Shown here: piece after piece, positions 735 to 34,130 of the stretch | Numbering within the stretch: position 1 is the first letter of the stretch | How the letters are laid out: every line of letters begins with the position of its first letter | DNA from: Trypanosoma brucei | Taxonomy: Eukaryota | Direction: 5' to 3' | Assembly: GCA_000002445.1 (NCBI GenBank) | Contig: CP000066.1 | Span: forward strand, 1,568,001 to 1,632,000 | Length of the DNA: 64,000 nucleotides | The notes under the pieces: model-generated | Seen by the model: only the letters and a program-made list of their open reading frames with translations | Told to the model about the DNA's origin: nothing | The model's database searches: none | Program-made: the position numbers and the translations under genes

Positions 735-3700
735 ATGTCGCGTGTTACCCTTTCCGCATCTCGCATGGAGAAAATAGTTAACGCATGGAGGAAAGTCCCT
801 GATGCAGCGGAAGGTTGTTCAGTTATGTGTTGTGTATTTGGTGCGCTTACGCCTGAGACACTTGAAAACCAACGTGGGCAGGCAATGCTGCAATACCTTT
901 TTACGTCGCTGAATACTGTGTGCAACGCTGCCTTGTTCTTTTCCTTTGATAAGCTACTGGTTGTACATTCCAACCTCAATGTTGAGCTGCCGCCCTCATC
1001 AGAGAGCTTTACCTACGCTTCTGCAACGTTGGACGAGAAGTTTGGTGAGATTCTCGCAGCATTTGTTGCTGATGCAAAAGTTGGAGTGTGTCAGAAGGAG
1101 TTGAACATACAAGAGGGTGATTTTGCACCAAAGCTAATTTCAGTCGTTCGAGAAATTGTTCCCGCTGAGCGTACGGTTGAAGTTGGACCCCTTCTGGGTG
1201 AGTTCCTTTTTGTGAAGGACGAGGCAGCACTTTCCTGTGTGGAGAAAGCGGCAGGACTTTGTAACGCTATATTCCGCCGCTCCGCCCGCGGGATGATTGA
1301 GTCGGAAATGCAAAAGAGTAATCCTAAAACGCTGAGCGCCTTGCGGGAGCAGTTAACGAAAACCCTCGAGGCACCAAACACCGTCATGGGTTTGGAAACA
1401 CTTGATGTCTCTCAGTTCTCAATTGCGTCCGGTTTGACACCATGTATTATGCACCGTGGGACTTATAACCCTCAAATTAGTGTCACAGAGGTGAGTACCC
1501 AACCGCTGCGGAGTGATGTCATCGTCGTCCGATACGGATTGAAGAATTGCGGCTACACCGCTTTCATCGCCCGTACGCTCATCGCGGAACGAAATGCCCC
1601 AAGCAACGTGAAGGACGTCTACAAGTTTGTGTACAACGTAACCGAAAAACTGTTAGAGCACCTTCGTGTGGGGACGCGTCTCAGTGCCGTGCATGAAGAA
1701 GTAATGAAGTATGCAACCACTACAGACGAAGCTCTTGCAAAGCACCTTCCCAAGTCTTTGGGTTTCTCGACTGGATTGTTGGTGCTTGAGGCACGCGGGA
1801 CAATATCTCAGAAAGGAACTGCAACAGTTGAAGACGGAATGGCTTTTGTAACTCGGGTTACTCTCGAAGGGGTGCCGGATGGTGAAGGCGGTACATTCGA
1901 CGTGGAGCTGTCCGACACAGTCACAGTAAAAGGTGGCGCTGCACAACTTAACACCAAAACATCACGTAAGCTTGAGGAAGTCCTCTACGATGACAGTGCA
2001 GAAGAGGAAACTGCATTCGAAACAAGTGCGCGGGACTTAAATAAGATAACACGGCAAGGACAGAGTAGCGTTCCACTACTCTCGCGGGAATCGGCACGAG
2101 AGGAAAAACTCAAGACGCTTTTAAGGGAACTACATGCGGAGTTGGCCGCTGCTGGTGGGAAAAAAGCCAAAACTGCCGTCTCAGAAGAGTTTCGTACGTA
2201 CGAAATTGCACGTCTTTCCTACGGCGACGTCATTCCTTACGCGAATGAAACCTCGTTCCCGGATGTGGCGCGTGGTGGTGGCATTTATGTAGACACGGAA
2301 AAGGAGGTGGCGTTCTTTCCCGTATGCGGGGGTGTGGCGGCGTTTCATGTCTCGACCATAAGTCGAGTTGACGTGAAGTTTGAAGGGAACCAAGTGGCGG
2401 GTATTTTCTCATTTCATTCGCTTCAGGAAGGAAATATCGCCTACCGTTTGAACCGCACTAAAATATTCGTCAAAGAGCTGACGTACCGTGCGCGCCGTGA
2501 CATCTTCACCGATGTGAAGATTGCCATTCAGGGTATTCAGCAACGCATCAAAAATAGAGATACGGAGCGACGCCGTGTTTCATTGAATGCTGGAGGTGCT
2601 CAGCTGCAAACAGTTCCTGATGCGATTCGGCTTCCACAGGTAAAGATTCGACCCCCAGCGACAACAGGACGTTATAACAAAGAATGCATTGGAAACTTGG
2701 AGATTCATCGGAATGGATTGCGCTTTTCATATATTGGTGGGGCACCAATTGACATGCATTTTGAAAACATCAAGCATGTTATATTCCAACCCGCTGTCAA
2801 TGCTGTTCGGGTTATTTACCACATCACCTTGAAGAAGGGTGTGGAGATTGCCCGGAAGAGTGTGGATGAGGTTCAGTTCGTTGCGGAGGTTATGGAAAGC
2901 AGCGAAACTGTTATGGCTGCGCGAAAAGGGTATGAAGAGGAAATTGCAGCGGAAGAGCGTGAACTTATGCGCATCAGTGACACAAACAAACAATTCCTGA
3001 AGTTTGCTCAGGCCGTTGAAAGGGTCAGCATGATCAAAACGCAAATACCTGCTAGCAATTTTTCCTTTGAAGGCGTTCATGCCAAGGGCTTAACAACATT
3101 CAAAGCCAATCGCGAAGTGTTATGGGCGATTATGGACCGGCCTCCGTTTACACAGCGTGTGGAGGATATCGAGGTTGTGTCGCTTGAGCGCGTTATACCT
3201 GGTGGATCCACTTTTGATGTGAACCTTATTTTCAAGGACTACAACAAACCGCCGGCGAGCATCACCACAATACCTCGTAGCAGCCTCGAGTCTCTAAAAG
3301 ACTGGTGTCTTGCAGCGCGACTTTACTACATGGAGACGAGCGTTAATCCAAACTGGAAGGTGGTACTGAAAACAATTATCGAAGACGAAGATTGGGATCC
3401 GTGGAGGCCAGGAGCCGGTTGGGCAGTACTCAATGATGATTTCGAGGGAGATGAAGAAGCCTCTGAAGACTCTGATTCAGATGATTCCACTTATGTTGAA
3501 GAAGAAGATGAAACCGATGAGACGGGGAGTTCCTTTCTTGACGATGAGGAGAGTGAACCCGAGTCCAGTGACGAAGAGGACAGTGAAAGTGTGTTGAGTT
3601 GGGACGAAATGGAGCGTCGTGCGGAGCAGCATGACCGGCAGCGCGGATACGGCTCTGATGATGATGATCGGCCTCGCAAGAGACCCCGCACGTCTTCAGG

Positions 3701-3803
3701 CGCTTCCAGCAACCGAAGGCCGCATCCGCCTCCACAACTCCCAAAAAAGCAGAGTCGGTTGCCTCCTATGGGATCAGCAGTGCCGCCACCGCGCCGGTTT
3801 TAG
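735..3803 (+). CDS. SPT16: FACT complex subunit SPT16 (histone chaperone)
   Basis: 1022 aa. Middle/C region carries the Spt16-typical block ...GSTFDVNLIFKDYNKPPASITTIPRSSLESLKDWCL. This is followed by a long acidic D/E/S-rich tail (DDEESEPESSDEEDSES...) and a basic RPRKRPR end. Length and architecture match SPT16. Confidence 0.8.
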   Translation: MSRVTLSASRMEKIVNAWRKVPDAAEGCSVMCCVFGALTPETLENQRGQAMLQYLFTSLNTVCNAALFFSFDKLLVVHSNLNVELPPSSESFTYASATLDEKFGEILAAFVADAKVGVCQKELNIQEGDFAPKLISVVREIVPAERTVEVGPLLGEFLFVKDEAALSCVEKAAGLCNAIFRRSARGMIESEMQKSNPKTLSALREQLTKTLEAPNTVMGLETLDVSQFSIASGLTPCIMHRGTYNPQISVTEVSTQPLRSDVIVVRYGLKNCGYTAFIARTLIAERNAPSNVKDVYKFVYNVTEKLLEHLRVGTRLSAVHEEVMKYATTTDEALAKHLPKSLGFSTGLLVLEARGTISQKGTATVEDGMAFVTRVTLEGVPDGEGGTFDVELSDTVTVKGGAAQLNTKTSRKLEEVLYDDSAEEETAFETSARDLNKITRQGQSSVPLLSRESAREEKLKTLLRELHAELAAAGGKKAKTAVSEEFRTYEIARLSYGDVIPYANETSFPDVARGGGIYVDTEKEVAFFPVCGGVAAFHVSTISRVDVKFEGNQVAGIFSFHSLQEGNIAYRLNRTKIFVKELTYRARRDIFTDVKIAIQGIQQRIKNRDTERRRVSLNAGGAQLQTVPDAIRLPQVKIRPPATTGRYNKECIGNLEIHRNGLRFSYIGGAPIDMHFENIKHVIFQPAVNAVRVIYHITLKKGVEIARKSVDEVQFVAEVMESSETVMAARKGYEEEIAAEERELMRISDTNKQFLKFAQAVERVSMIKTQIPASNFSFEGVHAKGLTTFKANREVLWAIMDRPPFTQRVEDIEVVSLERVIPGGSTFDVNLIFKDYNKPPASITTIPRSSLESLKDWCLAARLYYMETSVNPNWKVVLKTIIEDEDWDPWRPGAGWAVLNDDFEGDEEASEDSDSDDSTYVEEEDETDETGSSFLDDEESEPESSDEEDSESVLSWDEMERRAEQHDRQRGYGSDDDDRPRKRPRTSSGASSNRRPHPPPQLPKKQSRLPPMGSAVPPPRRF

Positions 3804-4762
3804 TTAGGGTAGAGATGAAGAGGGAAATATAGAAACAATTAAACGGGCAAGAACGAGGGGGACGAAAGCGTTTTTTTTTTGTCTTGTTAACATTACAAGA
3901 GAGAATGAAGAATGTGGTAAGTAATAGCGTTTGTGACAATCGAAACGGAAGCGGAAAGTGAAATTGAAGAGGAAATGTTCCTTTTTATCACGCCATTTCT
4001 TTCACACCTGTTGCTTGCCCTTTCGTACATCATAGAGTAAGAAACCGCTGAGGGAGCTGCCAAATGCGGTGCCTCGAAGGGGCACTTCTTTTTTTTTAAT
4101 TTTTGTCAGCTTCTCAGCTTCTTTCCGTTTTGTGGACGAACACTTCTCCTGCTGCGACACTTGTTCGGCAGCTGAAGCATCAAACGTTTTGTTTTTCTTT
4201 ATTGAGCCTTTCTCCTTTTAAACTTACTCCGGGACACTGGCACACATTTCGATTATATTTTTGCGCTTTTCTTGTGAGTACTCTCGTCCTTTTCCTTTCT
4301 TCACCTCATTCCTGTTGCGGCGGCGCATGGAGAAGCTCTTCTTTTTTCTTTTGTGGGAGCTAACAAAGTGATGGAAAGAACCTTCTCGAATTTCGAACGG
4401 AAATTGATCGGGAAAGCGTTTGGCAAAGGCAGGAAAATTGCGTTGAGGTGGTTCTATTATCACTACAATTCAATCGCCCACTTTTTTTTACCTCTTTTAA
4501 TTGGTGCGATGTGGTTATGCGCTTTCCGCTGCCACGCAAATGATGGTGTTCAACACGTCTTTGATGCAACAGAGGGGGGAAACTCCTTCTTTTTTAAACT
4601 TTTTTTTTAAAAAAAAGTTTAAACAAATTATTTTTTTTTTCGCACTTCTGGAGTGTGGTGGAGTCCGTGATGGTTTGTTTTATTTTCCTTTATTATTATT
4701 AATAATATTATTTTCTTTTTCCTTATAATATTTTACTTTCCGTAAAAGTTGTAGCGAACATA

Positions 4763-5698
4763 ATGGCTGCAACACCTTACAGGTTTCGGTTGTCTTCACA
4801 GTGCAGCCACATAAGGCGTCATGTGTGTAGACGGTTGATTACACCACAGTTATCTGTGAGGACATGTGCTACGGGAACGGAATCATCAAACGGTGCTCGT
4901 TTAATCGAGGTGATGGAATCTCCAATTGAGAATATTAAAATTCTTTCCATGAACAACGCTCCAGCGAATGTTCTATCGTCAGCCATGATAAAGGAGATGC
5001 TTAGTTCGATCAGTGAAGTATGCAACCCAGAGAAAGGATGCTGCAAGGGTATCGTGTTAACATCGTCTCTCCCTAATGTGTTTTGTAATGGACTTGATCT
5101 TCAATTATTGATCGATAAATTGCCTTACGATTCTTTTTCATCCTACTGGAAGCAACTTCAGATGCTTTACATCACTCTCAACACGCTTCCGGTTCCTGTC
5201 GTTGCAGCTATAAACGGAGATGCTACGGGTTTTGGATGTATTATGGCTCTGTCTACTGATTATAGAGTTATGGCCGAGAAAGCAGAAGAGGGGGGAGGCA
5301 AACAATTAAAAATTGGTGTTGATACGGTTCGATGTGGATTGGCAGTTCCACCTTGCTTTGGTGCGGTTGTGGCTCACACGGTTGGATATCGTGCATGTGA
5401 AATGTTTCTTCAGCGTGGTGTGATTCTTTGTGCTGCTGAGGCTGAAAATGCGGGTCTTGTAGATGAAACGGTGGAAAGGGCTGATGAGGTTCTTGTGCGT
5501 GCTTTGGATATGGCAGAAAACCTGTCCGGAGGACCCCCGTGGTCTTTTTGGTTGGTAAAAGACGCTTCACGCAAGGCGTTTATGGCCCCCCTTTGTACGC
5601 AAGCCCTTCGTGATGCCGATTGTGCAAACTTTTACGAGTTTATCAGCAACACGGAGGTGCGACGTGATATGAGAGCGTACATTGCAGGTAGTGCGTAG
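4763..5698 (+). CDS. Enoyl-CoA hydratase/isomerase (crotonase) family protein, probably a mitochondrial delta3,delta2-enoyl-CoA isomerase-like enzyme
   Basis: 311 aa. Crotonase signature VAAINGDATGFGCIMALSTDYRV and FCNGLDL. The N-terminus MAATPYRFRLSSQCSHIRRHVCRRL is Arg-rich and presequence-like. Confidence 0.8.
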   Translation: MAATPYRFRLSSQCSHIRRHVCRRLITPQLSVRTCATGTESSNGARLIEVMESPIENIKILSMNNAPANVLSSAMIKEMLSSISEVCNPEKGCCKGIVLTSSLPNVFCNGLDLQLLIDKLPYDSFSSYWKQLQMLYITLNTLPVPVVAAINGDATGFGCIMALSTDYRVMAEKAEEGGGKQLKIGVDTVRCGLAVPPCFGAVVAHTVGYRACEMFLQRGVILCAAEAENAGLVDETVERADEVLVRALDMAENLSGGPPWSFWLVKDASRKAFMAPLCTQALRDADCANFYEFISNTEVRRDMRAYIAGSA

Positions 5699-5749
5699 CG
5701 GTTGTTTTTCTTTTGTACGTGGTTAACCACAACCTACTTGTCTCACATG

Positions 5750-5752
<3 letters not shown>

Positions 5753-5782
<30 letters not shown>
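5753..5782. repeat. (AT)15 microsatellite
   Basis: A direct atat... run lying in the intergenic region downstream of the crotonase gene. Confidence 0.95.
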
Positions 5783-5785
<3 letters not shown>

Positions 5786-5985
5786 TATTTAATTATGTAT
5801 GATCTCTTATTTTCATATGTTGTGTGCCATGAAAAATACATTATTTTCCTTTTCTCACGCAAGTTTAAGCAGTTTCCCTTCTTTGCTTCGTTTCTTCGTC
5901 CCTTTCGTTTGCACCCCATGCGAACAACACAAGCCTGTAGACATCTACCGCATACGCGTTAACCATTTGTTCGACACGGCAAATA

Positions 5986-7623
5986 ATGGTGGAAATCACT
6001 GAACTCGCAAAAGACATCTCCGAGAGGTTACGAAATGGGTCTTACGAGTGCGTTATTTGCTCCAACGCGGTTTATCTACGAGATAAACTTTGGTCGTGTA
6101 CTGTCTGCTACGGTGTTGTGCACATGCCGTGCGTAAGATCTTGGGTAAAGGTTCAGGTTGAGGAGCGGGAGAAGCGTGATGCCACTGCTGGTGGTTCCTC
6201 CGCTTCTTCTATTTCCCTCAATGAGTTTCGCTGCCCTATCTGCCAAGCTCTAACACCTGTTTCGGCCGTAGCGGAGTTTAGTTGTTTCTGTGGAAAGGTG
6301 TGTAACCCAACTCCGGATCCCTTACTTGTCCCTGGTTCATGTGGCGACACATGTGGACGCCGTCGTAAGGACGAGTTGTGTCCCCACGCCTGCACGCTTA
6401 TGTGTCATCCAGGTCCTTGTACTCCATGTCAACTGACACGTACACAATCATGTTTCTGTGGAAAGACGAGCAAAACTGTGGGGTGCTCTAGTGGAATTCA
6501 TGGCTTTGAGTGTGAAGGTATTTGTGGGAAACTGCGTGAGTGTGGAAAGCATAACTGTGGTGTCCCGTGTCATGAAGGGCCTTGTCCCGTGTGCACTATT
6601 CTTTCTACAGATTCGTGTTATTGTGGTGCTACGAAGCGAACTCAGCGCTGTGGCGAAAGCGGGCCGTTTCCATGTGGAACCCCGTGCTCAAAAATTCTTG
6701 ATTGTGGCAACCACCGATGTCTTTCCAAATGTCATAAGGACGCGTGTGAGCCCTGCTTTCGGACCCCTGAGCGTATGGTATTTTGTCCTTGTGGGAAGGT
6801 GCGACTGCAGCAACTGTTGAATTCGCCCAGGAAATCGTGTTTGGATCCTATTCCCTCCTGCGGGTTGGTGTGTGAAGGTTTTTTACCATGCGGTCATACC
6901 TGCTCAGATGTGTGCCACGAAAGTCCCACATGTCCACCATGCACAAAATTAGTTTCGATGAAATGCGGTTGCGGATCGCAGAATTATCAAATCTACTGCT
7001 TTTTCACATATTTGCCACAGGGTGAATGGAAAGCCGCCGCTGAAAGGTCCGGTCTCAGTAAGGATAAAATTATTTCTCACTTTCCTCCGGTGTGCAAAAA
7101 ACCTTGTCGCAAGCATTTATCGTGTGGTAAACATACGTGCAAAGAGAACTGTTGCACCAATGAGGATCACACATGTTACAAAATCTGTACGAAACGCCTC
7201 TCTTGTGGAACGCACAGCTGCGGCCAATTATGCCATAAAGGTCTCTGTCTGCCATGTTCCGTGGCATCTTATGATCGTCTCTACTGCCGCTGCCGTCGAA
7301 CTTGGGTGGAGCCTCCGGTGCCATGTGGAACAAAACCTCCAAACTGCAGTCATGAATGCATCGTTCCCCGTCCTTGTGGGCATCCGGCCAACCACCCGTG
7401 TCATATTGAAAACGAATGTCCCGTTTGTGTTGTTCCCGTTGAGAAGAAGTGCGGCTCGCATGCCACAGTGATTCCATATTATTTACCCTGCTACAGAGAG
7501 TCGGTGTCATGTGGTAAGAAGTGTGGAAAGTTGATGAGCTGCTGTGGAAAACCGTGTGGGAAGATATGCCACATCGGGAAGTGCGAACATAAGTGTCAAA
7601 CACCATTTCCTGCACTTGAGTGA
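5986..7623 (+). CDS. NF-X1-type zinc-finger protein with N-terminal RING/PHD-like finger
   Basis: 545 aa and extremely Cys/His-rich. It has repeated C-x-H-x-C-x3-C-H-x-G-x-C units (e.g. CGKHNCGVPCHEGPCPVC, CGNHRCLSKCHKDACEPC), which are characteristic of NF-X1 fingers. The N-terminal CVICSNAV...CTVCYGVVHMPC looks like a RING-like finger. Confidence 0.75.
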   Translation: MVEITELAKDISERLRNGSYECVICSNAVYLRDKLWSCTVCYGVVHMPCVRSWVKVQVEEREKRDATAGGSSASSISLNEFRCPICQALTPVSAVAEFSCFCGKVCNPTPDPLLVPGSCGDTCGRRRKDELCPHACTLMCHPGPCTPCQLTRTQSCFCGKTSKTVGCSSGIHGFECEGICGKLRECGKHNCGVPCHEGPCPVCTILSTDSCYCGATKRTQRCGESGPFPCGTPCSKILDCGNHRCLSKCHKDACEPCFRTPERMVFCPCGKVRLQQLLNSPRKSCLDPIPSCGLVCEGFLPCGHTCSDVCHESPTCPPCTKLVSMKCGCGSQNYQIYCFFTYLPQGEWKAAAERSGLSKDKIISHFPPVCKKPCRKHLSCGKHTCKENCCTNEDHTCYKICTKRLSCGTHSCGQLCHKGLCLPCSVASYDRLYCRCRRTWVEPPVPCGTKPPNCSHECIVPRPCGHPANHPCHIENECPVCVVPVEKKCGSHATVIPYYLPCYRESVSCGKKCGKLMSCCGKPCGKICHIGKCEHKCQTPFPALE

Positions 7624-8074: not shown

Positions 8075-10864
8075 ATGATAGAATATGCGTGTGGTTGGCT
8101 ACACGCGCCTGTCAGTAGTTTCAACAGTAGGGGGGAAACCACTTCAAGCAGTGAAGGAGCAACGTGGGGTATCGCATTGGGAAGATTCGGCCCTACCGCC
8201 AAGTGTTCTCTTGTGAGAGTACTGGCAGTGATAGTTTCAGGGTATTATTTTTTTGTTGGTTTATGTTTAGTTAGTGCCGCAAAATGCATATGTACCGACT
8301 ACTGGTCTATGATCGAGGGTTTAACAAACGTAGCGAATGTGTCCGAGCTAAGGGAAGTTACCAACCTCACTGACCAGCTTAGATATTCACTCATAGTTGT
8401 TTCATGTGTGGCTCTGTTCGTTCATCTCGCTATTTCTGTTGTCGGAGTGAGGCACATCCGTAGTTTGTTCATGCAACTCGATGCAAATGTCGAGGCGTTG
8501 CACCGTGTTGCCGATGCGTTGGCAGTGCCACTCAACGGTGATGCAACGGGTACTATTGATGTGAATCCGAAGCAGTCCTTTTCCCATGCAAAAAGTTGTA
8601 AAGGGATTCAAAACGCTGCAACACCTGAAATGGCGAATGACATGCTTATGCTTTTGCACCAACTCCGTGGGTTACTTCCCGATTCCACATTTGAAAAGGA
8701 GCTAACAGACGTCGCTGTGCGGCAGTGTAACGGTGCCAAACTTCAATGTGAAAAGGCGAATCTTCCCGTTGGTTCCAAACTTGAGGCCCACTCACCGCGT
8801 GTTATGTCTCAGTTCAGAGTTTCACGGAGAACTGCAGCGGGAATGGTTCGAAATCGGGAGATTTTGGAACACGGTGGCACTGGCACGACCTTCAGGAAAA
8901 GGAGGGTCACGGTGGTGGTTGTTTGCCTCTCCGACTTTGCGCATCAAGTTGAGGAGGATTTGGAACATTGTCTTCATTTTTCCCGACAATTTCTTTCTGT
9001 TGTAACTCAAATTGTTGAGAGGTATGGCGGTATCATTGCGAGTGTAGCACCTAACAAGGTTGTTGTGACATGGAATGCCTTTACGGATTCTCCCCGTCAC
9101 GCACAAAACGGAATGCAATGTGCCTGTGATGTACTTGTTGCGCTCCAACCATTTACACAAGGTTTGAGTGTGTCACCGTCTCTTAAGTTGTTTCCGACCA
9201 TTGTTGCTACTTCAGGGTTTGTTATGGCAGGAACGATCAGAGTTTCTGACCATGAGGACGATGTCTTAAGTGTTTACGGGAATTGTATTTCCCTGAGTGA
9301 GGAACTTCCATCACTATTAGGTGCGCTGAGAGTAAGGTGTGCGTGTGTTGGGGCGCTGGCACATTTTTGCCCAAGCAACTTTTCGTGTATTCCACGAGAC
9401 TGCGTAACAGATGCCAATAACAAAAGGCACATCATTTATGAGATGCAAGATAAGGCTCTCGCACAGCGCCGGCGTCATGTTGAGGCATTTCAAGCATTTC
9501 AGCGAGGAGAACATGGTGTCGCACACCATCTCTACACTCGAATACACGAAGAAACACGTAGTGATTGGAATGCCTTGCGTATGAGTCAGATTTGTTATTA
9601 CTTGGAAGAAAGCCACAGCGTTTACGCCCAACGCTTTCCGGAGTGGCAACTGTTCCCTGTTGAAAGAGAGCACTCATGTGTTAATGAACTTCAACTTGGT
9701 AGAAGGGCGTACGGGTTTATGAAATGCGAGGCTTCACCTGTTGAGGATCATATTCGCCGTGCCATATTAAAGCAAACAGATACACGTGCCCTTCCGCGCT
9801 CTTATGGACGAAATGAGGAGGAGTCGTACCGAACGCCTGAAGTCGCAAAATCAGATAAGTGTTTGATAGTTAAATGTAACTCGTCTTCTTTGCGGTATGT
9901 CACGGAGTTTTGCGACCGTCAAGGGTTGGTGTTTCGCATGTCTAAACAAGTATTAGGCACTGGGGCGTGTGGTGTTGCATTCTTGGGTTTGTCACAAACT
10001 GGTGCACTGGTTGCCATTAAGGAAATCGAACTTCCATTAAGGACTCGGGCACAAAACAGTAACTTAAGCGACCTAAACCGTAGGAGATTACGTCGGAAGG
10101 GAATTCAAGTGGAAAGTGCAATGGAGAAAACTTTGGATGGTATTATCAATGAAGTAAGTTTACTCTCCCGACTGCGTCATGCAAACATAATGGGTTACAT
10201 ATCGTCTGCCATTTGGGGTAACAAATTGCTGATTGTAATGGAGTTGGGTAGTGGTGGGAGTCTCTACGATCTCATACAAAAGTTTGGAAGTATAAAAGAG
10301 AGTCGTGCGAGACGATACCTCCGCGATGTATTGCAAGGACTGGAGTATTTGCATCGCAAGAATATTGTGCACCGGGACATTAAACCTCAGAATGTTCTGC
10401 TACTTGAGACCGGTTTATGTAAACTTACTGATTTTGGTACTTCACAAAACTTGCAGAAAATCGCCAACAGTTGTGCACCTGAGGGAACTCCCCCTTATAC
10501 GGCACCTGAAGCAGCGAGAGGAAAAGCGGAAAAGGCATCTGATATTTGGAGTTTTGGCATTATGATGTTGTATGTTTTAAGTGGTTCCCTCCCATGGCCA
10601 AACATGAACCAAATGACTTCTCATGCATTTTTCTACAAGGTGGGACATGTGGAAAGTTTTATGCCATGTGTAGATGATAAAATTTCTCACGATGCGAAGC
10701 AAATCGTCAAGCGTTGCTGCCAACGCGACCCGAAAGAACGGGCCACCGCACGGGAACTTTTGAATAATTCATTTTTTAACTGCACGGACACTTCTACGAG
10801 TTGCCTCGTTAAGGACTGGCCATCCTCTTGTGGGAATATCTCGAGAAGCGAATTTCATTTGTAG
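8075..10864 (+). CDS. Transmembrane Ser/Thr protein kinase (STE/MEKK-like) with a central degenerate nucleotidyl-cyclase-homology-like segment
   Basis: The first ATG is at 8075; the track start at 8072 is TTG. The N-terminal region has hydrophobic segments (VLAVIVSGYYFFVGLCLVSAA; LIVVSCVALFVHLAISVVGV). The C-terminal kinase domain has GTGACGV (Gly loop), VAIKE, HRDIKPQNVLL, DFGTS, GTPPYTAPE and DIWSFGIMM. The central block VTVVVVCLSDFAH...ERYGGIIASVAPNKVVVTWNA...LFPTIVATSGFVMAGTI...VLSVYGNCISL resembles the class III cyclase catalytic domain but has substitutions at metal-binding positions. Confidence 0.8.
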   Translation: MIEYACGWLHAPVSSFNSRGETTSSSEGATWGIALGRFGPTAKCSLVRVLAVIVSGYYFFVGLCLVSAAKCICTDYWSMIEGLTNVANVSELREVTNLTDQLRYSLIVVSCVALFVHLAISVVGVRHIRSLFMQLDANVEALHRVADALAVPLNGDATGTIDVNPKQSFSHAKSCKGIQNAATPEMANDMLMLLHQLRGLLPDSTFEKELTDVAVRQCNGAKLQCEKANLPVGSKLEAHSPRVMSQFRVSRRTAAGMVRNREILEHGGTGTTFRKRRVTVVVVCLSDFAHQVEEDLEHCLHFSRQFLSVVTQIVERYGGIIASVAPNKVVVTWNAFTDSPRHAQNGMQCACDVLVALQPFTQGLSVSPSLKLFPTIVATSGFVMAGTIRVSDHEDDVLSVYGNCISLSEELPSLLGALRVRCACVGALAHFCPSNFSCIPRDCVTDANNKRHIIYEMQDKALAQRRRHVEAFQAFQRGEHGVAHHLYTRIHEETRSDWNALRMSQICYYLEESHSVYAQRFPEWQLFPVEREHSCVNELQLGRRAYGFMKCEASPVEDHIRRAILKQTDTRALPRSYGRNEEESYRTPEVAKSDKCLIVKCNSSSLRYVTEFCDRQGLVFRMSKQVLGTGACGVAFLGLSQTGALVAIKEIELPLRTRAQNSNLSDLNRRRLRRKGIQVESAMEKTLDGIINEVSLLSRLRHANIMGYISSAIWGNKLLIVMELGSGGSLYDLIQKFGSIKESRARRYLRDVLQGLEYLHRKNIVHRDIKPQNVLLLETGLCKLTDFGTSQNLQKIANSCAPEGTPPYTAPEAARGKAEKASDIWSFGIMMLYVLSGSLPWPNMNQMTSHAFFYKVGHVESFMPCVDDKISHDAKQIVKRCCQRDPKERATARELLNNSFFNCTDTSTSCLVKDWPSSCGNISRSEFHL

Positions 10865-17999: not shown

Positions 18000-19472
18000 A
18001 TGCGCATTGGGAAGTATTGCGTCGTTTTTCTGCTAGTGTGGACGCAAGCAACCAAGAGAAGCGTGGGAAAACCCACAAATATTATAAATCAGGAAGAATT
18101 TAAAGCATTATGTGCTTTCGTGAATTTGGCGAATGAATCGGTAGACTACGCAGGTCTCGAAGCCGAAATCAGGGACGCGGCAGCAGATATCGGGGCTATT
18201 TTTCTTGCGTCGCAGCAAGAAAGCATTTCGAAATTGAGGGAGCAAATTGAGATCTGGCGCGAGGTTGAAGCAACCAATAACGGAGGGAACAACCGAGGCA
18301 TTAAAAAGTGGAGTGTTTGGGAGGAAGCGAGAAGAAAGCTAATAGATGAAGGCGGAACAAAATATGTGCAATGGGTTGAATTGGGCTTGAGTGATGCTGA
18401 GAAGCAGAAGATAGAGGAAGCTATGGATGAGACAGTCAAATGCATGGCGGAGGAGAACGGCTTGTGGGACACTTTGCGGGAAATGCCAGTAAAAGGAAGT
18501 ATAACAAAAGCAATATTCGGATCCAGGGAAAGGCAAGTGCAGATTATGAAAGGACGCGGTAGCCGCGAAACCGCTTGTGGCAGGGGATTATTCCCTGGAG
18601 ACTGGGCGGGCACGGCATTGAGCGCTGACTTACTGTGCCTGTGCGCCGCTACGGAACGCAGGGCCGCCACCAACGAGGGTTGCTGCACAGGATGCGAGAC
18701 AGGGGGAAATGGCGTTGCTTGGGATCCAAGGGTGCATAGTGAGGAGAGGTGGAATTTGCTTAGAAGTAAATGTGAAAAGGTCAGCAGCGGTACTCCCCTT
18801 TCAAGTCGAGCGCTGTCGGTTGCGGAGAGTACATTTTTCAACCAACTGAAGATCTCAAAAGGGTCAACATCAGGAAGACCAACGCTACTGGGTAAATTTG
18901 GAACTAGCTTTTCCGTGGGTTGTACCGGGGAAATCACCGAGAAAGAGGGACGTTGCGTTCGGTATAGCCACAGCCATGTTGACAGAAATAATCCAGCGCT
19001 ACCCTGGCTTACAAACTTAAGGGAGGCGGCAAATGCAGTAGATCAGTTGAATGCAGTTGATACAAAGCTCAAACATCTACGCGTTGGTATAGCCACCTTC
19101 CACACGAAGCATGTTGATTTTAAATCGCGTGAAAAAGGAAACGGCGGCGACCCTATTCTGGGAAGCGGTGGCGTAGAGGGTGAAGTTAACACCAATGAGT
19201 CAACGAAGGCGAACACAAACGATGGTAGAGCAAAAAAGGCTGGTGAAAGCAAAAGAACACCTGTCGACAACATTTCACATAAATGCGAAGGTTATAGGCA
19301 GGGAAAAACATGCAAAAGTCGAAAAGTGGAAACGGAATGTGACTGGGAGGAGGGTACATGCGTTGGCTCTGCCAGTGAGCCAGTCACTTCGCCTCTGAGG
19401 CAAAGACCACCTACTTCAGGGAAGGTAAACTCCATTAGATGCTCACTGAGTTTGTTTTTAATACTATTATAG
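18000..19472 (+). CDS. VSG-related (variant-surface-glycoprotein-like) protein
   Basis: 490 aa, with an N-terminal hydrophobic signal. The N-domain is helical and rich in A/E/L, and carries a ...SADLLCLCAATE... motif. The C-terminal block CEGYRQGKTCKSRKVETECDWEEGTC is Cys-rich and ends in the hydrophobic tail SIRCSLSLFLILL, consistent with a VSG C-terminal domain plus GPI signal. Length and layout fit a T. brucei VSG. Confidence 0.5.
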   Translation: MRIGKYCVVFLLVWTQATKRSVGKPTNIINQEEFKALCAFVNLANESVDYAGLEAEIRDAAADIGAIFLASQQESISKLREQIEIWREVEATNNGGNNRGIKKWSVWEEARRKLIDEGGTKYVQWVELGLSDAEKQKIEEAMDETVKCMAEENGLWDTLREMPVKGSITKAIFGSRERQVQIMKGRGSRETACGRGLFPGDWAGTALSADLLCLCAATERRAATNEGCCTGCETGGNGVAWDPRVHSEERWNLLRSKCEKVSSGTPLSSRALSVAESTFFNQLKISKGSTSGRPTLLGKFGTSFSVGCTGEITEKEGRCVRYSHSHVDRNNPALPWLTNLREAANAVDQLNAVDTKLKHLRVGIATFHTKHVDFKSREKGNGGDPILGSGGVEGEVNTNESTKANTNDGRAKKAGESKRTPVDNISHKCEGYRQGKTCKSRKVETECDWEEGTCVGSASEPVTSPLRQRPPTSGKVNSIRCSLSLFLILL

Positions 19473-24951: not shown

Positions 24952-25944
24952 ATGGAGAACAAATATTTAGTGTGGTGCATGTTTTTTTGTTTAACGGTTG
25001 TGGGGGGCAAAGCTAATGCAGTGAAAACAACGCTAAAGAAAGAAACGAATTGCCACACAACTGTTAAAGCACTGTTCAACAAACGTGAAAACTGTCATGA
25101 TCTGGCCTCCGATGCAACGAAAATAAATGAGGATGTTGACATCGGAACAGATGCAGATAGATGGACTGCTTGCACATGGTTAGAATATGATAAGAGGCGT
25201 ACGGAGACACAATGCATATTGAGGTTTAACAACACATATGGAGAGAAATTAGTATGCACCTACGAAACAAAGGGCAATCGCCAAGACCTAAGTTGCAAAC
25301 CAGAGGGTCGTTGCGAAGACGCTCGCGAGCGGTACCTTTTAGGGGAAGAAGGATGTCCGAAGCCTGCACCACGTGAAGAACCAAAAAGAAACAAAACCGA
25401 AAGGTGTCTTGATGAGGTTTATGGGTCATTCAGCGGTGACCAGGAGTGTGCGAAACTTAAAATAGGAAGCGAGGTCGCCGAGCAAATTATATTCAGGGAG
25501 AACGGAGATGACAAAACACCAGAATGTATAGAAGCAAGTGGCCCCCCAGAGTCGAAAGTGGTTGGAGAAGCATGCGTAATAAAGTTGCGAACCGAGCCAC
25601 ACCCATCAGAATATATTTGCAAAATGGAGGGTTCTGGTGAGGAAAGGAAAATAAAATGCACAAGAGAAACATCGAAAACAGTTCCTCAACCTACGACCAC
25701 AAGGAAGAGACGAGGCAGTACTGGATCCATGCGCAAAAGAAGTGACGACGGTGGTAACACTGAGGTCACCCTGAAAGAAGATAAAGACAAAACACAAGAT
25801 GAGGATGAAGGCCAAAAAGAAGAAAGAAAAGAAGAAAGCGGTGAAGAAACTGGTACAGCAAAAGCTCGAATCAAAAGCAAAACTTATTGGAAATCAAATA
25901 ATCCTATTATCATGCTTTTAACACTTTCGTTATTGTTGCTTTAA
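24952..25944 (+). CDS. Diverged leading member of the tandem surface-protein family (signal peptide, Cys-rich ectodomain, K/E-rich stalk, GPI-signal-like tail)
   Basis: 330 aa. It shares Cys spacing and motifs with the array genes (TQCILRFNN..CTYET, GEAC.IKLRT, ERKIKCT, WKSNNPIIMLLTLSLLLL), but the ectodomain is only about 40-50% identical. Its 3' flank is nearly identical to the flanks in the array. Confidence 0.7.
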   Translation: MENKYLVWCMFFCLTVVGGKANAVKTTLKKETNCHTTVKALFNKRENCHDLASDATKINEDVDIGTDADRWTACTWLEYDKRRTETQCILRFNNTYGEKLVCTYETKGNRQDLSCKPEGRCEDARERYLLGEEGCPKPAPREEPKRNKTERCLDEVYGSFSGDQECAKLKIGSEVAEQIIFRENGDDKTPECIEASGPPESKVVGEACVIKLRTEPHPSEYICKMEGSGEERKIKCTRETSKTVPQPTTTRKRRGSTGSMRKRSDDGGNTEVTLKEDKDKTQDEDEGQKEERKEESGEETGTAKARIKSKTYWKSNNPIIMLLTLSLLLL

Positions 25945-26767: not shown

Positions 26768-27829
26768 ATGAGGAAACAACATGTCATATACTACGTATTT
26801 TTCTGCTTAGGAGCCATAGGAAGCAGAGGAGAGACAGAACCAATAACAATACAAAAAGGAACGGAGTGCCACAAAGCATTGGAAACAGCGTTCACCACGC
26901 CCAAAAACTGTGAGAATGTAAGCACAGCGATAAGCGAAATGCCTGAAAATGTTAGCATTGAAACATTCCCGGGGGCATGGACCGTGTGTCAATTCATGGA
27001 AAACGAAAAAGAAAGCACAGTCACGCAATGCATTTTGAAGTTCGAAAACGCAGAGGGAAATCGAATAGCGTGCACCTACGAAACCGAGGGCGGACAAGGA
27101 AACGTAAGCTGCACACAGGAAGTGGATGCTCCGGTGGCTTATCATCCATACTGTGAGGGAGCCGAATACGATTATACTTATCATGACGAAAGCCACGGTC
27201 ATGGGAGCGGGGGCTATGAGCGGCGTTGTCCCGAGCCGGGTCCACGTCCTGCGCCACTGAATGAAGAAGCTCACAGGTGTGTTGCCGACGTCCTTGTTGC
27301 ATTTGGTGGTCACCATGAATGTGCAAAACTCTACGGCACAGATCCGGCACTCGATCCTGAAGATGTCATCTTCGGCGAGAAAGGAGATGACAAACCAAAA
27401 TGCACGGAGGCAGATCGACCCGAGGTGTCCACATTGGTTGGAGAAGCATGCGAGGTAAAATTGCGGACCAAACCAGAACCAGACGAATACTTGTGTAAGG
27501 TAGAAACCTCTAACGGTAAAAGAAAAATAAAGTGTACCCCCAAAACACCAAAAACAATTCCTCAACAAGCGGACACAGTAAAGAAACCAGATACCACTGA
27601 ATCCATGCAGAAAAAAGCTGACGATGGTGGTAAAACTGAGGTAACACCAGAAGTAAAAGATGGGCAAAAAGATGAAAAGGGTGGGAAAGAAAGGCAAGAA
27701 AAGCAAAAAATGGAAAATAATACTGGAAAAAGCAATGAAGCAGCGACAAACACTAAAACGCAGGCTTCTTCTTGGAAATCAAATAATCCTATTATCATGT
27801 TTTTAACACTTTCTTTATTGTTGCTTTAG
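26768..27829 (+). CDS. Tandem-array surface protein copy 2 (signal peptide, Cys-rich domain, K/E/T-rich stalk, GPI-signal-like C-terminus)
   Basis: 353 aa. Signal peptide MRKQHVIYYVFFCLGAIGSRG, more than 14 conserved Cys, and a stalk KKPDTTESMQKKADDGGKTEVTPEVKDGQKDEKGGKERQEKQ. The tail SSWKSNNPIIMFLTLSLLLL is a small-residue omega site followed by a hydrophobic segment. Confidence 0.75.
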   Translation: MRKQHVIYYVFFCLGAIGSRGETEPITIQKGTECHKALETAFTTPKNCENVSTAISEMPENVSIETFPGAWTVCQFMENEKESTVTQCILKFENAEGNRIACTYETEGGQGNVSCTQEVDAPVAYHPYCEGAEYDYTYHDESHGHGSGGYERRCPEPGPRPAPLNEEAHRCVADVLVAFGGHHECAKLYGTDPALDPEDVIFGEKGDDKPKCTEADRPEVSTLVGEACEVKLRTKPEPDEYLCKVETSNGKRKIKCTPKTPKTIPQQADTVKKPDTTESMQKKADDGGKTEVTPEVKDGQKDEKGGKERQEKQKMENNTGKSNEAATNTKTQASSWKSNNPIIMFLTLSLLLL

Positions 27830-28645
27830 TATCATTTAATAAACGGTAATGTAGACTGTTTTGAAGAAAGTATGCTTTTAACGGAGAAGGGAAGTGAGTG
27901 TATCAAAACATTTTTCTTGACAGACGTACATTAAGGGAACATTTTTATTGTTTACTTGCCATATTGCACTGCTAAAAAACTTCTCGTGCTGGAGTTGCGT
28001 GCGAAGTATTAGATTTCTTCACCGATTCTTTTTTGTAGCGAAGGTAAGGGGAATAGGATATGTAGTTGTGTCGGGGACGGCGTTCTGTTTGTTGAAAGGG
28101 ATAGCAGGAAGAGAAAACTCTACCCCGGGTGAAAGCAACTGACTTGTGCAGTTCGTTCGGATCGATAGACAGGTGGAAATCGCCGCAAAAAGGTTGTAAC
28201 AGCATTTGATCGGCACATGTGGTGTAGCGTTTTGGGTTGAGAAATGCACGCATAAAGGCACGGATGCTCAGGAAATACCCTTATTTCTGATAACATAATT
28301 GGACGCTAAGCTAGAGAAGGCACAACACCAGATTCGAGAATACAACAGAAAAATGACGGGCGATGGCACCGACGAAGAGGAACAATTGAAGCGGGTCGCT
28401 GAAATCGATAACATCAATGCCCACGGCAGCCTCCTCTCGACGCGCGGACAAAACAAGAAAAAAAAATGCAGCTTCAGAAAAAAAAAAAAATGTTTCTTTG
28501 GGAAACCACTTGAAACTGTTGAGGAAAAGAGGGTTTGCCACGCCCAGCCGCTAATGATAATGTGAAATGGAAATTTACAGTATCCATTTAACCTACAATA
28601 TCATGATTCCTACACCTTTATCATTCTTCCTTTAGCGAAAACAAA

Positions 28646-29707
28646 ATGAGGAAACAACATGTCATATACTACGTATTTTTCTGCTTAGGAGCCATAGGAA
28701 GCAGAGGAGAGACAGAACCAATAACAATACAAAAAGGAACGGAGTGCCACAAAGCATTGGAAACAGCGTTCACCACGCCCAAAAACTGTGAGAATGTAAG
28801 CACAGCGATAAGCGAAATGCCTGAAAATGTTAGCATTGAAACATTCCCGGGGGCATGGACCGTGTGCCAATTCATGGAAAACGAAAAAGAAAGCACAGTC
28901 ACGCAATGCATTTTGAAGTTCGAAAACGCAGAGGGAAATCGAATAGCGTGCACCTACGAAACCGAGGGCGGACAAGGAAACGTAAGCTGCACACAGGAAG
29001 TGGATGCTCCGGTGGCTTATCATCCATACTGTGAGGGAGCCGAATACGATTATACTTATCATGACGAAAGCCACGGTCATGGGAGCGGGGGCTATGAGCG
29101 GCGTTGTCCCGAGCCGGGTCCACGTCCTGCGCCACTGAATGAAGAAGCTCACAGGTGTGTTGCCGACGTCCTTGTTGCATTTGGTGGTCACCATGAATGT
29201 GCAAAACTCTACGGCACAGATCCGGCACTCGATCCTGAAGATGTCATCTTCGGCGAGAAAGGAGATGACAAACCAAAATGCACGGAGGCAGATCGACCCG
29301 AGGTGTCCACATTGGTTGGAGAAGCATGCGAGGTAAAATTGCGGACCAAACCAGAACCAGACGAATACTTGTGTAAGGTAGAAACCTCTAACGGTAAAAG
29401 AAAAATAAAGTGTACCCCCAAAACACCAAAAACAATTCCTCAACAAGCGGACACAGTAAAGAAACCAGATACCACTGAATCCATGCAGAAAAAAGCTGAC
29501 GATGGTGGTAAAACTGAGGTAACACCAGAAGTAAAAGATGGGCAAAAAGATGAAAAGGGTGGGAAAGAAAGGCAAGAAAAGCAAAAAATGGAAAATAATA
29601 CTGGAAAAAGCAATGAAGCAGCGACAAACACTAAAACGCAGGCTTCTTCTTGGAAATCAAATAATCCTATTATCATGTTTTTAACACTTTCTTTATTGTT
29701 GCTTTAG
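28646..29707 (+). CDS. Tandem-array surface protein copy 3 of the family (near-identical to copy at 26768)
   Basis: 353 aa. Differs from copy 2 by a single conservative change (T to A in ...HELT/AHGP on the antisense track, equivalent). The sense protein is identical on the track. Confidence 0.75.
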   Translation: MRKQHVIYYVFFCLGAIGSRGETEPITIQKGTECHKALETAFTTPKNCENVSTAISEMPENVSIETFPGAWTVCQFMENEKESTVTQCILKFENAEGNRIACTYETEGGQGNVSCTQEVDAPVAYHPYCEGAEYDYTYHDESHGHGSGGYERRCPEPGPRPAPLNEEAHRCVADVLVAFGGHHECAKLYGTDPALDPEDVIFGEKGDDKPKCTEADRPEVSTLVGEACEVKLRTKPEPDEYLCKVETSNGKRKIKCTPKTPKTIPQQADTVKKPDTTESMQKKADDGGKTEVTPEVKDGQKDEKGGKERQEKQKMENNTGKSNEAATNTKTQASSWKSNNPIIMFLTLSLLLL

Positions 29708-33939: not shown

Positions 33940-34130
33940 AGTTTAATTGGACGCTAAGCCAGCGAAAGAACTATGCCAAACTCGAGAGCACGACAGTGAT
34001 GGCTGGTGGCGCTCACGAAAATGTGTGATGGCAGGAACTCGCTGAGTTCAAGATCGTCAATGCCAACGGCAGCATTCCCTCGACACACGGAAGAAATAAG
34101 CAAAAAAAGAGATGCTGTACACAAGCTATA
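33940..34130 (+). repeat. Diverged relic of the conserved intergenic element, downstream of the array end
   Basis: ttaattggacgctaagccagcgaaag...atcgtcaatgccaacggcagcattccctcgacacacgg aligns at about 70% with taattggacgctaagctagagaagg...atcaacatcaatgcccacggcagcctcctctcgacgcgcgg from the array units. No CDS follows it. Confidence 0.5.

What the first reader, a model, noticed from the sequence alone, without database searches (positions are those of the whole stretch)
8075..10864. Membrane protein kinase carrying a degenerate cyclase-homology-like domain (reverse of the receptor-guanylyl-cyclase layout)
Between the N-terminal hydrophobic segments and a canonical Ser/Thr kinase domain lies ~170 aa that aligns motif-by-motif with class III adenylyl/guanylyl cyclase catalytic domains:
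- VTVVVVCLSDFAH versus V[ST]ILFADIVGFT;
- ERYGGIIASVAPNKVVV versus the Φ..K..GD block;
- LFPTIVATSGFVMAGTI versus ΦRΦGIHSGxVΦxGΦΦG;
- VLSVYGNCISL versus ΦDVWGxxVNxA.

It lacks the second metal-binding Asp and the transition-state Arg. This would be a TM - pseudo-cyclase - kinase architecture, the inverse order of metazoan receptor guanylyl cyclases (kinase-homology then cyclase). It could be a dimerisation/regulatory module or a partner for active receptor cyclases.
Basis: partly seen in the sequence, partly recalled or inferred. Interest (0 to 1): 0.6.

Follow-up and report, generated by a model that had tools for sequence, protein, structure and literature searches.

The report
Membrane kinase with dead cyclase domain
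This Trypanosoma brucei gene encodes a two-pass membrane protein kinase that really does carry a catalytically dead adenylyl/guanylyl-cyclase-type domain in front of its kinase domain, but that domain was already reported for this gene in 2021.

Summary
The ORF at 8075..10864 (+) encodes a 929-aa, 103.6-kDa protein. Its length, mass and transmembrane segments (47-69, 103-125) match T. brucei Tb927.3.5650.

The homology is real, although Pfam PF00211 gives no hit even at E<=10:
- A single-sequence phmmer search of 1.84 billion proteins reaches bona fide PF00211 cyclases at E 3e-6 to 1e-3.
- A profile built only from kinase-linked relatives hits solved cyclases (Cya2 2W01, E 1e-11).
- hhalign gives 99.85% probability.
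- An AlphaFold model (core pLDDT 83-97) superposes on class III cyclases (Foldseek E 2e-12, target TM 0.75-0.81).

The domain (aa 270-459) has lost all five canonical catalytic residues examined: both metal Asp (C284, N327), the substrate Lys/Glu (S323), and the transition-state Asn and Arg (S406, E410). None of 14 aligned kinase-linked relatives keeps the first Asp. The domain is nevertheless 42-43% conserved among Trypanosoma orthologues, against 7-20% in the linkers. The kinase domain has every catalytic motif.

The TM - pseudo-cyclase - active kinase architecture is therefore supported. Jensen et al. 2021 (PMC8519429) already list a "nucleotide cyclase-like domain" in Tb927.3.5650, so the finding is known. 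A dimerisation or transducer role is inferred, not shown.

The parts
8075..10864 (+). Complete ORF (929 aa plus stop) of a two-pass membrane STE-type Ser/Thr kinase, equal to T. brucei Tb927.3.5650
   Evidence: Searches give 929 aa and 103.6 kDa. It is 99% identical to a T. brucei equiperdum kinase. Length, mass and TMD positions match the entry for Tb927.3.5650 in Jensen 2021, S2 Table.
8213..8281 (+). Transmembrane segment 1 (aa 47-69)
   Evidence: Kyte-Doolittle 19-aa windows score above 1.6 over aa 44-70. Published TMHMM prediction is 47-69. Helical in the full-length AF2 model.
8381..8449 (+). Transmembrane segment 2 (aa 103-125). In the model it continues as a helix to about aa 149.
   Evidence: Hydropathy up to 2.62 over aa 101-128. 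Published TMHMM prediction is 103-125. AF2 helix 92-149, pLDDT 61-73.
8627..8719 (+). Conserved juxtamembrane helix-break-helix with the motif LRGLLP (aa 197-202). It resembles the FxRY(L/V)P cyclase-transducer-element motif of the related true cyclases. Assignment is tentative.
   Evidence: R198 and P202 are invariant in 8 kinase-linked relatives. Identity here is 19-32%, against 4-19% in the following insert. The motif appears in true cyclases in the alignment, and the FGRY CTE motif is described in PMC5995499. An HMM of the cyclase CTE region did not score this segment significantly, and AF2 confidence here is below 50.
8882..9451 (+). Degenerate class III cyclase homology domain (aa 270-459). 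Catalytic positions are C284, S323, N327, S406 and E410.
   Evidence: phmmer reaches PF00211 cyclases. hhalign 99.85% over 188 columns. Profile against PDB hits Cya2 2W01 at E 1.1e-11. AF2 core pLDDT 83-97. Foldseek against PDB returns only class III cyclases in the top 50, TM 0.75-0.81.
9467..9613 (+). Conserved three-helix extension after the cyclase-like domain (aa 465-513), TPR-like in appearance
   Evidence: AF2 helices at 465-476, 480-493 and 498-513, with pLDDT about 85-96 in the domain model and 76-89 in the full-length model. 42-51% identity among Trypanosoma orthologues. F472 and R502 are invariant and W524 (just past this segment) is nearly invariant. TPR hits in PDB have only E 0.2-0.9 and are not significant.
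9944..10777 (+). Protein kinase catalytic domain (aa 624-901) with all catalytic motifs
   Evidence: Pfam PF00069 E 8.7e-58. Best solved relatives are PAK1/2, MAP3K5 (ASK1) and MST/STK24-26 at E about 1e-32. Motifs: GTGACGVA 628-635, VAIK 646-649, HRDIKPQN 766-773, DFG 786-788, APE 810-812.

Best explanation
The gene encodes T. brucei Tb927.3.5650. Its layout is: short N-terminus, TM1, a roughly 33-aa loop, TM2, a helical juxtamembrane linker, a diverged class III cyclase homology domain (aa 270-459), a three-helix extension, a disordered linker, and a catalytically competent STE-type Ser/Thr kinase.

Shown here:
- The middle domain is a true homologue of adenylyl/guanylyl cyclase catalytic domains and is predicted to keep their fold, including the long beta4-beta5 hairpin.
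- It lacks both metal-binding Asp, the substrate-specifying Lys/Glu, and the transition-state Asn and Arg, so it cannot make cAMP or cGMP by the canonical two-metal mechanism.
- It is nevertheless conserved among orthologues well above the flanking linkers.
- The same dead-cyclase-plus-kinase cassette occurs behind different membrane modules in related proteins, most of them from unnamed metagenome or transcriptome contigs (named ones: Trypanosoma species and Angomonas).

Inferred:
- Class III cyclase domains work as head-to-tail dimers driven by an N-terminal helical transducer.
- The pseudo-cyclase is therefore most likely retained as a dimerising, conformation-transmitting scaffold. It would couple the membrane or juxtamembrane helices to the kinase, bringing two kinase domains together or re-orienting them for trans-autophosphorylation.
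- This would be the functional mirror image of metazoan receptor guanylyl cyclases, where a pseudokinase regulates an active cyclase.
For: Identity.

Homology to cyclases:
- Single-sequence phmmer hits to proteins that Pfam scores as Guanylate_cyc.
- hhalign 99.85%, E 6.6e-31.
- A profile of kinase-linked members only hits PDB cyclases; the top 24 are all class III cyclases, best E 1.1e-11.

Fold: AF2 core pLDDT 83-97. The Foldseek PDB top 50 are all class III cyclases, with E down to 2e-12 and target TM 0.75-0.81.

Loss of catalytic residues: (MAFFT columns), independently (HMMER alignment to Cya2). 0 of 14 aligned kinase-linked relatives keep the first metal Asp.

Purifying selection: the CHD is 42-43% identical among T. 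brucei, T. congolense, T. vivax and T. cruzi, against 7-20% in adjacent linkers.

Active kinase motifs.

Variable membrane modules in paralogues.

Literature: Jensen 2021 reports the domain and an ER signal for the overexpressed, C-terminally tagged protein.
Against: - Pfam PF00211 does not hit this protein even at E<=10, nor the nine kinase-linked relatives scanned at E<=0.01.
- Nothing here tests dimerisation. No multimer prediction was available.
- The linker between TM2 and the CHD (aa 141-271) is predicted with pLDDT below 50. It contains a poorly conserved insert of about 55 aa, which argues against a rigid coiled-coil transmission like that of true membrane cyclases.
- The transducer-element resemblance is not statistically supported.
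- No functional phenotype is known for this gene (Table 1 of Jensen 2021: function 'nd').
Confidence: 0.6

Rival explanations
1. The degenerate pocket at the CHD dimer interface has become an allosteric ligand-binding site for a nucleotide or other small molecule. The kinase would then be regulated by ligand binding rather than by the membrane module. Comparable cases are the forskolin site of mammalian adenylyl cyclases and the non-catalytic site of soluble guanylyl cyclase.
For: The fold and the cleft-forming strands are conserved while the chemistry is lost. Several residues are invariant across the family without being catalytic: G319, N334, H342, G381 and G402. The extracytoplasmic loop is only about 33 aa, which leaves little room for an external ligand-binding domain. 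Degenerate sites in heterodimeric cyclases are known to bind regulators (established knowledge).
Against: No conserved polar constellation replacing the catalytic residues is evident. The catalytic positions vary freely among relatives (Me1 = C/S/N/T/R/V/Y; TS-Arg = E/A/D/R/L/T), which is not what a conserved ligand pocket predicts. There are no binding data.
Confidence: 0.2
2. The pseudo-cyclase heterodimerises with the catalytic domains of the trypanosome receptor-type adenylyl cyclases (ESAG4/GRESAG4). It would act as a dominant-negative or scaffolding partner that links cAMP signalling to a kinase.
For: Class III domains dimerise head-to-tail, and heterodimers with one degenerate partner exist (established knowledge). 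T. brucei has many receptor cyclases (PMC8519429).
Against: The domain lacks both half-sites, so a heterodimer would have no complete active site and could only inhibit. Its nearest true cyclases are alveolate-type (for example a dinoflagellate sequence), not the trypanosome receptor cyclases, which did not appear among the 51 hits. The tagged protein localised to the ER, whereas the receptor cyclases are flagellar.
Confidence: 0.07
3. The domain is still an active nucleotidyl cyclase, or another nucleotide-transforming enzyme, that uses non-canonical residues.
For: D287 lies three residues after the lost first Asp, and acidic residues (E408, E409, E410) cluster near the lost Arg. A source annotation calls a paralogue 'serine/threonine protein kinase/class 3 adenylate cyclase'.
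Against: All five canonical catalytic positions examined are substituted, and they are not conserved among orthologues. Replacing the transition-state Arg with Glu reverses the charge needed to stabilise the pentavalent phosphate. No kinase-linked relative retains the first metal Asp.
Confidence: 0.03
4. The resemblance is chance motif matching, and the region is an unrelated alpha/beta domain.
For: Pfam PF00211 gives no hit at E<=10. Single-sequence phmmer against PDB gives nothing at E<=10.
Against: all show significant, full-length, co-linear similarity in sequence and predicted structure.
Confidence: 0.01

Closest known systems
[quoted passage not shown] 2021, PLoS One (PMC8519429)
   Same: Same gene. 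The 929 aa length, 104 kDa mass and TMDs at 47-69 and 103-125 all match, as does the 'nucleotide cyclase domain' followed by a C-terminal ePK domain. The paralogues share the CHD-like-plus-kinase cassette.
   Different: In the sections read and keyword hits, the paper records the domain from database annotation or HHpred and does not discuss catalytic residues.
Class III adenylyl/guanylyl cyclases with membrane anchor plus transducer helix plus CHD, for example Synechocystis Cya2 (PDB 2W01) and OaPAC/bPAC (4YUS, 5M27)
   Same: Same fold, and co-linear sequence similarity from beta1 to the last strand. There is a membrane anchor followed by a helical linker, and an R-x-x-L-P motif resembling the FGRY transducer motif.
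   Different: No catalytic residues remain. A poorly conserved insert of about 55 aa lies between the transducer-like motif and beta1. The output is a fused protein kinase, not cyclic nucleotide synthesis.
Metazoan receptor guanylyl cyclases (GC-A/NPR1 type)
   Same: A membrane protein that combines a kinase-fold domain and a cyclase-fold domain in one chain, one active and one a pseudoenzyme.
   Different: The domain order is reversed, and the active and dead roles are swapped: here the cyclase is dead and the kinase is active. It has two TM segments with a tiny loop instead of a large extracellular ligand-binding domain. Parsons et al. 2005 found no RGC-group kinases in trypanosomatids. This is an analogy, not membership.

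Membership tests
Class III nucleotidyl cyclase catalytic domain (CHD; Pfam PF00211 Guanylate_cyc) | Match to the Pfam PF00211 profile | tested here: not met
   No PF00211 hit at E<=10 on the full protein, on aa 1-620 or on aa 251-470. No hit at E<=0.01 in the nine kinase-linked relatives scanned (P0002-P0005, P0007-P0010; P0013, P0017).
Class III nucleotidyl cyclase catalytic domain (CHD; Pfam PF00211 Guanylate_cyc) | Significant, co-linear sequence homology to bona fide members | tested here: met
   phmmer E 2.8e-6 to 1e-3 in a 1.84e9-protein library, to proteins with PF00211 at E 1e-20 to 1e-27. hhalign 99.85%, E 6.6e-31, 188 columns. The family profile hits PDB cyclases at E 1.1e-11.
Class III nucleotidyl cyclase catalytic domain (CHD; Pfam PF00211 Guanylate_cyc) | Cyclase core fold (beta-alpha-beta-beta-alpha-beta with the beta4-beta5 hairpin) | tested here: met
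   AF2 model core pLDDT 83-97. The Foldseek PDB top 50 are all class III cyclases, E 2e-12 to 2e-9, target TM 0.75-0.81. This is a predicted structure, not an experimental one.
Class III nucleotidyl cyclase catalytic domain (CHD; Pfam PF00211 Guanylate_cyc) | Two metal-binding aspartates | tested here: not met
   C284 and N327 occupy these columns.
Class III nucleotidyl cyclase catalytic domain (CHD; Pfam PF00211 Guanylate_cyc) | Substrate-specifying Lys/Glu and transition-state Asn and Arg | tested here: not met
   S323, S406 and E410 occupy these columns.
Class III nucleotidyl cyclase catalytic domain (CHD; Pfam PF00211 Guanylate_cyc) | Head-to-tail dimer; cAMP/cGMP synthesis | not testable with these tools
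   No multimer prediction or biochemistry was available.
Eukaryotic protein kinase, STE group | Pkinase profile match and the catalytic motifs (Gly loop, VAIK Lys, HRD, DFG, APE) | tested here: met
   PF00069 E 8.7e-58. GTGACGVA, VAIK649, HRDIKPQN766-773, DFG786-788 and APE810-812 are present. The best PDB relatives are the STE kinases PAK1/2, MAP3K5 and MST. Orthologues are named 'STE group serine/threonine-protein kinase' by sources.
Tb927.3.5650 (Jensen et al. 2021) | Length, mass, TMD positions, species | tested here: met
   929 aa, 103.6 kDa, hydrophobic segments at 44-70 and 101-128, against 104 kDa and TMDs at 47-69 and 103-125, the smallest of the set at 929 aa. 99% identical to a T. 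brucei equiperdum protein. The neighbours SPT16, ECH and NF-X1 and the downstream VSG/ESAG1 genes fit a T. brucei chromosome end. The gene ID itself could not be looked up directly.
Metazoan receptor guanylyl cyclase | Order ECD - TM - pseudokinase - coiled coil - active cyclase | tested here: not met
   The order here is TM - TM - linker - dead cyclase - active kinase.
Cyclase transducer element (CTE) | Conserved FGRY-type helix-turn-helix immediately N-terminal to the CHD | tested here: inconclusive
   The LRGLLP motif has invariant R198 and P202 in the family, and paralogues have YRKFLP or FRKYLP, like FxRY(L/V)P of the true cyclases (alignment). However, an HMM of the cyclase CTE region scores this protein no better than shuffled decoys, the motif lies about 75 aa upstream of beta1, and AF2 confidence there is below 50.

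The most novel reading that the evidence does not exclude
The dead-cyclase-plus-kinase cassette may be a receptor-kinase design in kinetoplastids and related protists in which a pseudo-cyclase, inherited with its helical transducer from a membrane cyclase, acts as the obligatory dimerising signal converter for a MAP3K-like kinase. That would be an independent, mirror-image solution to the pseudokinase-to-cyclase logic of animal receptor guanylyl cyclases. The published description of these kinases (Jensen 2021, in the sections read and keyword hits) records only a 'cyclase-like domain'. It does not state the universal loss of catalytic residues or propose a mechanism.
Probability: 0.4. Interest if true: 0.5.

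Novelty: already known. Interest (0 to 1): 0.25.

Why it matters
Trypanosomes have almost no conventional receptors, so their ten transmembrane kinases are prime candidates for environmental sensing. Showing that the cyclase-like domain of this one is a conserved pseudoenzyme narrows its role to structure or regulation: dimerisation, signal transmission or ligand binding. It also gives a concrete hypothesis for how these unusual multi-pass kinases are switched. The existence of the domain is already in the literature and in database annotation, so the gain is refinement rather than discovery.

Tried and rejected
1. Pfam scans of the whole protein, aa 1-620 and aa 251-470 at E<=10 gave no PF00211 hit. 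Only chance-level AA_synth and ATG11 hits appeared.
2. Single-sequence phmmer of aa 231-480 against PDB sequences at E<=10 gave nothing.
3. The word-indexed homologue search returned only the T. brucei protein itself. The exhaustive HMMER search was needed.
4. An HMM built from the about 50 residues upstream of beta1 in 29 true cyclases (the CTE region) did not find the LRGLLP segment of this protein. Its score of 1.5 compares with shuffled decoys of up to 12.3. In two paralogues it picked the right place, but not significantly. The CTE assignment is therefore left as inconclusive.
5. The TPR-like reading of aa 465-513 rests only on PDB hits at E 0.2-0.9 and helix geometry. It is not claimed.
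6. The full-length AF2 model has pLDDT 57.5 and pTM 0.36, so inter-domain packing was not interpreted.
7. Literature searches for the L. major and T. cruzi orthologue IDs, and for 'pseudo-cyclase' with kinetoplastid kinases, found nothing.
8. The column I first labelled 'Sub2' is the residue three before the transition-state Asn, not the canonical substrate-specifying residue seven before it (S399 here). It is not used in the argument.
9. A role as donor of half an active site to a partner cyclase was rejected, because both half-sites are missing.
Full report
**What is at the coordinates.** A single ORF runs from the ATG at 8075 to the stop ending at 10864 on the + strand. It encodes 929 aa with a calculated mass of 103.6 kDa.
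- Two hydrophobic stretches lie at aa 44-70 and 101-128.
- Pfam finds a C-terminal protein kinase domain at aa 624-901 (PF00069, E 8.7e-58).
- The best solved relatives are the STE-group kinases PAK1/2, MAP3K5 and MST3/4 (E about 1e-32).
- The Gly loop, VAIK lysine, HRD, DFG and APE motifs are all present, so the kinase looks catalytically competent.
- The protein is 99% identical to a T. brucei equiperdum kinase.
- Neighbouring ORFs encode SPT16, an enoyl-CoA hydratase and an NF-X1 zinc-finger protein upstream. VSG-domain and ESAG1 genes lie downstream. This is a T. brucei chromosome core running into VSG/ESAG territory.

**Identity with a published gene.** Jensen et al. 2021 (PLoS One, PMC8519429) catalogue the ten T. 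brucei kinases with predicted TM domains. Their entry for Tb927.3.5650 reads 104 kDa, TMDs at 47-69 and 103-125, 'nucleotide cyclase domain'. The smallest protein in the 929-1678 aa range they give is 929 aa. These values match the window protein exactly.
- The paper states that three kinases (Tb927.3.5650, Tb927.9.12400, Tb927.10.1910) bear nucleotide cyclase-like domains. It also says RDK1 has an HHpred-detected adenylyl/guanylyl cyclase-like region.
- The over-expressed, C-terminally tagged Tb927.3.5650 co-localised with BiP in the ER, and its function is listed as not determined.
- In the sections I read and in keyword hits for 'cyclase', the paper says nothing about the catalytic residues of these domains.

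**Check of the observation.** In a MAFFT alignment with proteins that Pfam scores as Guanylate_cyc, they pair with the beta1 F(S/T)D motif, the GGxVxxxxGD hairpin, the RIGxHTGxVxxGxxG strand and the GDxVNxASR helix.

**Is it more than chance?** A direct Pfam scan is negative. There is no PF00211 hit at E<=10 on the whole protein or on the isolated region, and a single-sequence search of PDB is empty. Four other lines of evidence are decisive.
1. An exhaustive phmmer search of aa 1-620 against 1.84 billion representatives gave 51 hits at E<=1e-3, all over aa ~220-570 (core ~270-450). Besides kinase-linked relatives, they include many proteins with strong PF00211 domains at the matching position. 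For example, P0012 matches query 274-442 to 283-450, where Pfam places PF00211 at 285-463 with E 1e-25.
2. A profile made only from 14 kinase-linked sequences (A1) hits solved cyclases: Cya2 2W01 at E 1.1e-11, OaPAC at 3e-9, bPAC at 1e-6, RhGC at 6e-5 and CyaC at 4e-4. All 24 top hits are class III cyclases.
3. hhalign of the kinase-linked set against the true-cyclase set gives 99.85% probability and E 6.6e-31 over 188 columns, from before beta1 to the last strand. The cyclase set was chosen by similarity to the query, so this number is somewhat circular. Lines 2 and 4 are not.
4. An AlphaFold2 model of aa 260-600 has pLDDT 83-97 over most of the domain. By Foldseek it matches only class III cyclase catalytic domains in the top 50 PDB hits (E 2e-12 to 2e-9, target-normalised TM 0.75-0.81, about 195 aligned columns).

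The domain spans aa 270-459.

**Catalytic residues.** I read the canonical columns from the MAFFT alignment and, independently, from the HMMER alignment to Cya2.

| Canonical residue | In this protein |
|---|---|
| First metal Asp | C284 |
| Substrate-specifying Lys/Glu | S323 |
| Second metal Asp | N327 |
| Transition-state Asn | S406 |
| Transition-state Arg | E410 |

- The orthologues in T. congolense, T. vivax and T. cruzi (names) are equally degenerate, and they carry different residues at these positions.
- None of the 14 aligned kinase-linked relatives retains the first Asp. Three keep the Arg and two keep the Asn.
- The true cyclases in the same alignment almost all show D/D/N/R.
- The domain cannot therefore catalyse the two-metal cyclase reaction, and it cannot donate either half-site to a partner.

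**Is the dead domain maintained?** Identity between the T. brucei protein and its three Trypanosoma orthologues varies by region.

| Region | Identity to orthologues |
|---|---|
| Cyclase-like domain | 42-43% |
| Following helical segment (aa 460-530) | 42-51% |
| Kinase domain | 63-74% |
| Linkers on either side | 7-33% |

This pattern argues for purifying selection on a non-catalytic function.

**Family context.** The kinase-linked relatives combine the same dead-CHD-plus-kinase cassette with different membrane parts.
- The orthologues have two TM segments with a short loop.
- P0005, P0007, P0008 and P0010 have TM - about 380 aa extracytoplasmic region - TM.
- P0013 and P0017 have four to six TM segments, as does P0025, in which no kinase motif was detected.

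Upstream of the CHD, R198 and P202 of an LRGLLP motif are invariant in the family. Paralogues read YRKFLP or FRKYLP, close to the FxRY(L/V)P motif in front of the related true cyclases (alignment). That motif corresponds to the FGRY cyclase-transducer-element described for Cya2 and others (PMC5995499). An HMM of that region did not score the T. brucei segment above shuffled controls, and the full-length AF2 model is unreliable there (pLDDT below 50 for aa 141-271). I therefore record this as a lead only.

**How it most likely works.**
- Shown: a two-pass membrane protein with a conserved, catalytically dead cyclase-fold domain directly upstream of an intact STE-type kinase.
- Inferred from established knowledge of class III cyclases, which are obligate head-to-tail dimers driven by N-terminal helical transducers: the pseudo-cyclase is retained as a dimerising and conformation-transmitting module that controls juxtaposition or orientation of the two kinase domains. 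I put this at about 0.6.
- Alternative, about 0.2: the degenerate cleft is an allosteric ligand site. The free variation of the former catalytic positions among relatives weakens this.
- Alternative, about 0.07: inhibitory heterodimerisation with receptor cyclases. This is disfavoured by the ER localisation and by the absence of trypanosome receptor cyclases among the hits.
- Alternative, about 0.03: residual non-canonical catalysis.
- Chance resemblance is excluded.

**Comparison with known systems and novelty.** The protein is a member of the ePK STE group. It is a structural homologue, but not a functional member, of the class III cyclase family, because the defining catalytic features were tested and not met. 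It is only analogous to metazoan receptor guanylyl cyclases, with reversed order and swapped active and dead roles. Parsons et al. 2005 found no RGC-group proteins in trypanosomatids.

Three things added here appear not to be spelled out in that paper: the complete loss of the canonical catalytic residues examined in this protein, with the first metal Asp missing from every kinase-linked relative aligned; the selective conservation of the dead domain; and the conserved three-helix extension. These are refinements, so interest is low to moderate (0.25).

Noticed in passing
window 26768-33399 (+), and 24952-25944 (+): There is a tandem array of four ORFs of 353-354 aa with a period of about 1.88 kb. 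Three are 100% identical in protein and the fourth shares 299 of 353 residues. A fifth, diverged copy (330 aa, about 40% identity) lies upstream. They have an N-terminal signal-like and a C-terminal hydrophobic segment, are Cys-rich, and have a Lys/Glu/Thr-rich tail. Pfam finds nothing. They look like a surface-protein gene family. The region has a strongly positive AT skew (0.2-0.29).
   Followed up: partly
window 18000-19472 (+), 58206-59306 (+), 60735-61709 (+): Two ORFs carry the trypanosomal VSG_B domain (E 3.6e-71 and 1.3e-21) and one is an ESAG1 ORF (E 4.6e-105). They lie downstream of housekeeping genes, so the kinase sits at the edge of the conserved chromosome core next to VSG/ESAG-type genes.
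   Followed up: no
window 735-7623 (+): The upstream neighbours on the same strand are SPT16 (FACT subunit, 1022 aa), an enoyl-CoA hydratase/isomerase (311 aa) and an NF-X1-type zinc-finger protein (545-aa ORF).
   Followed up: no
window ~34000-44000: GC skew changes sign, from positive before about 34 kb to negative at 34-44 kb and positive again after. The only long ORF there is on the minus strand (39474-40361, no Pfam hit). This may be a strand-switch region or an inverted segment.
   Followed up: no
relatives P0005, P0007, P0008, P0010, P0013, P0017 (kinase-linked) and P0025 (no kinase motif found) (not in window): The dead-cyclase module sits behind very different membrane modules. Some have TM - about 380 aa extracytoplasmic domain - TM, and others have 4-6 TM segments. 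P0025 has the degenerate CHD but no kinase HRD motif was detected in it. P0010 also has a degenerate kinase HRD motif (CHQALDSSN), so it may be a double pseudoenzyme.
   Followed up: partly
relatives P0012, P0014, P0019-P0021 etc. (not in window): The closest true cyclases to the trypanosome pseudo-cyclase are not trypanosome receptor adenylyl cyclases. They form a group with Glu at the substrate-specifying position and a WNTP motif. One of them is from the dinoflagellate Gymnodinium smaydae. Some also carry a similar helical A-x-x-A-(Y/F) segment after the CHD.
   Followed up: no
Jensen 2021 S2 Table: The same L. major ID (LmjF.21.0130 / 'Lm.21.0130') is listed as orthologue of both Tb927.3.5650 and Tb927.10.1910. 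Herpetomonas is reported to lack an orthologue of Tb927.3.5650. The short two-TM form may therefore be restricted to Trypanosoma.
   Followed up: no
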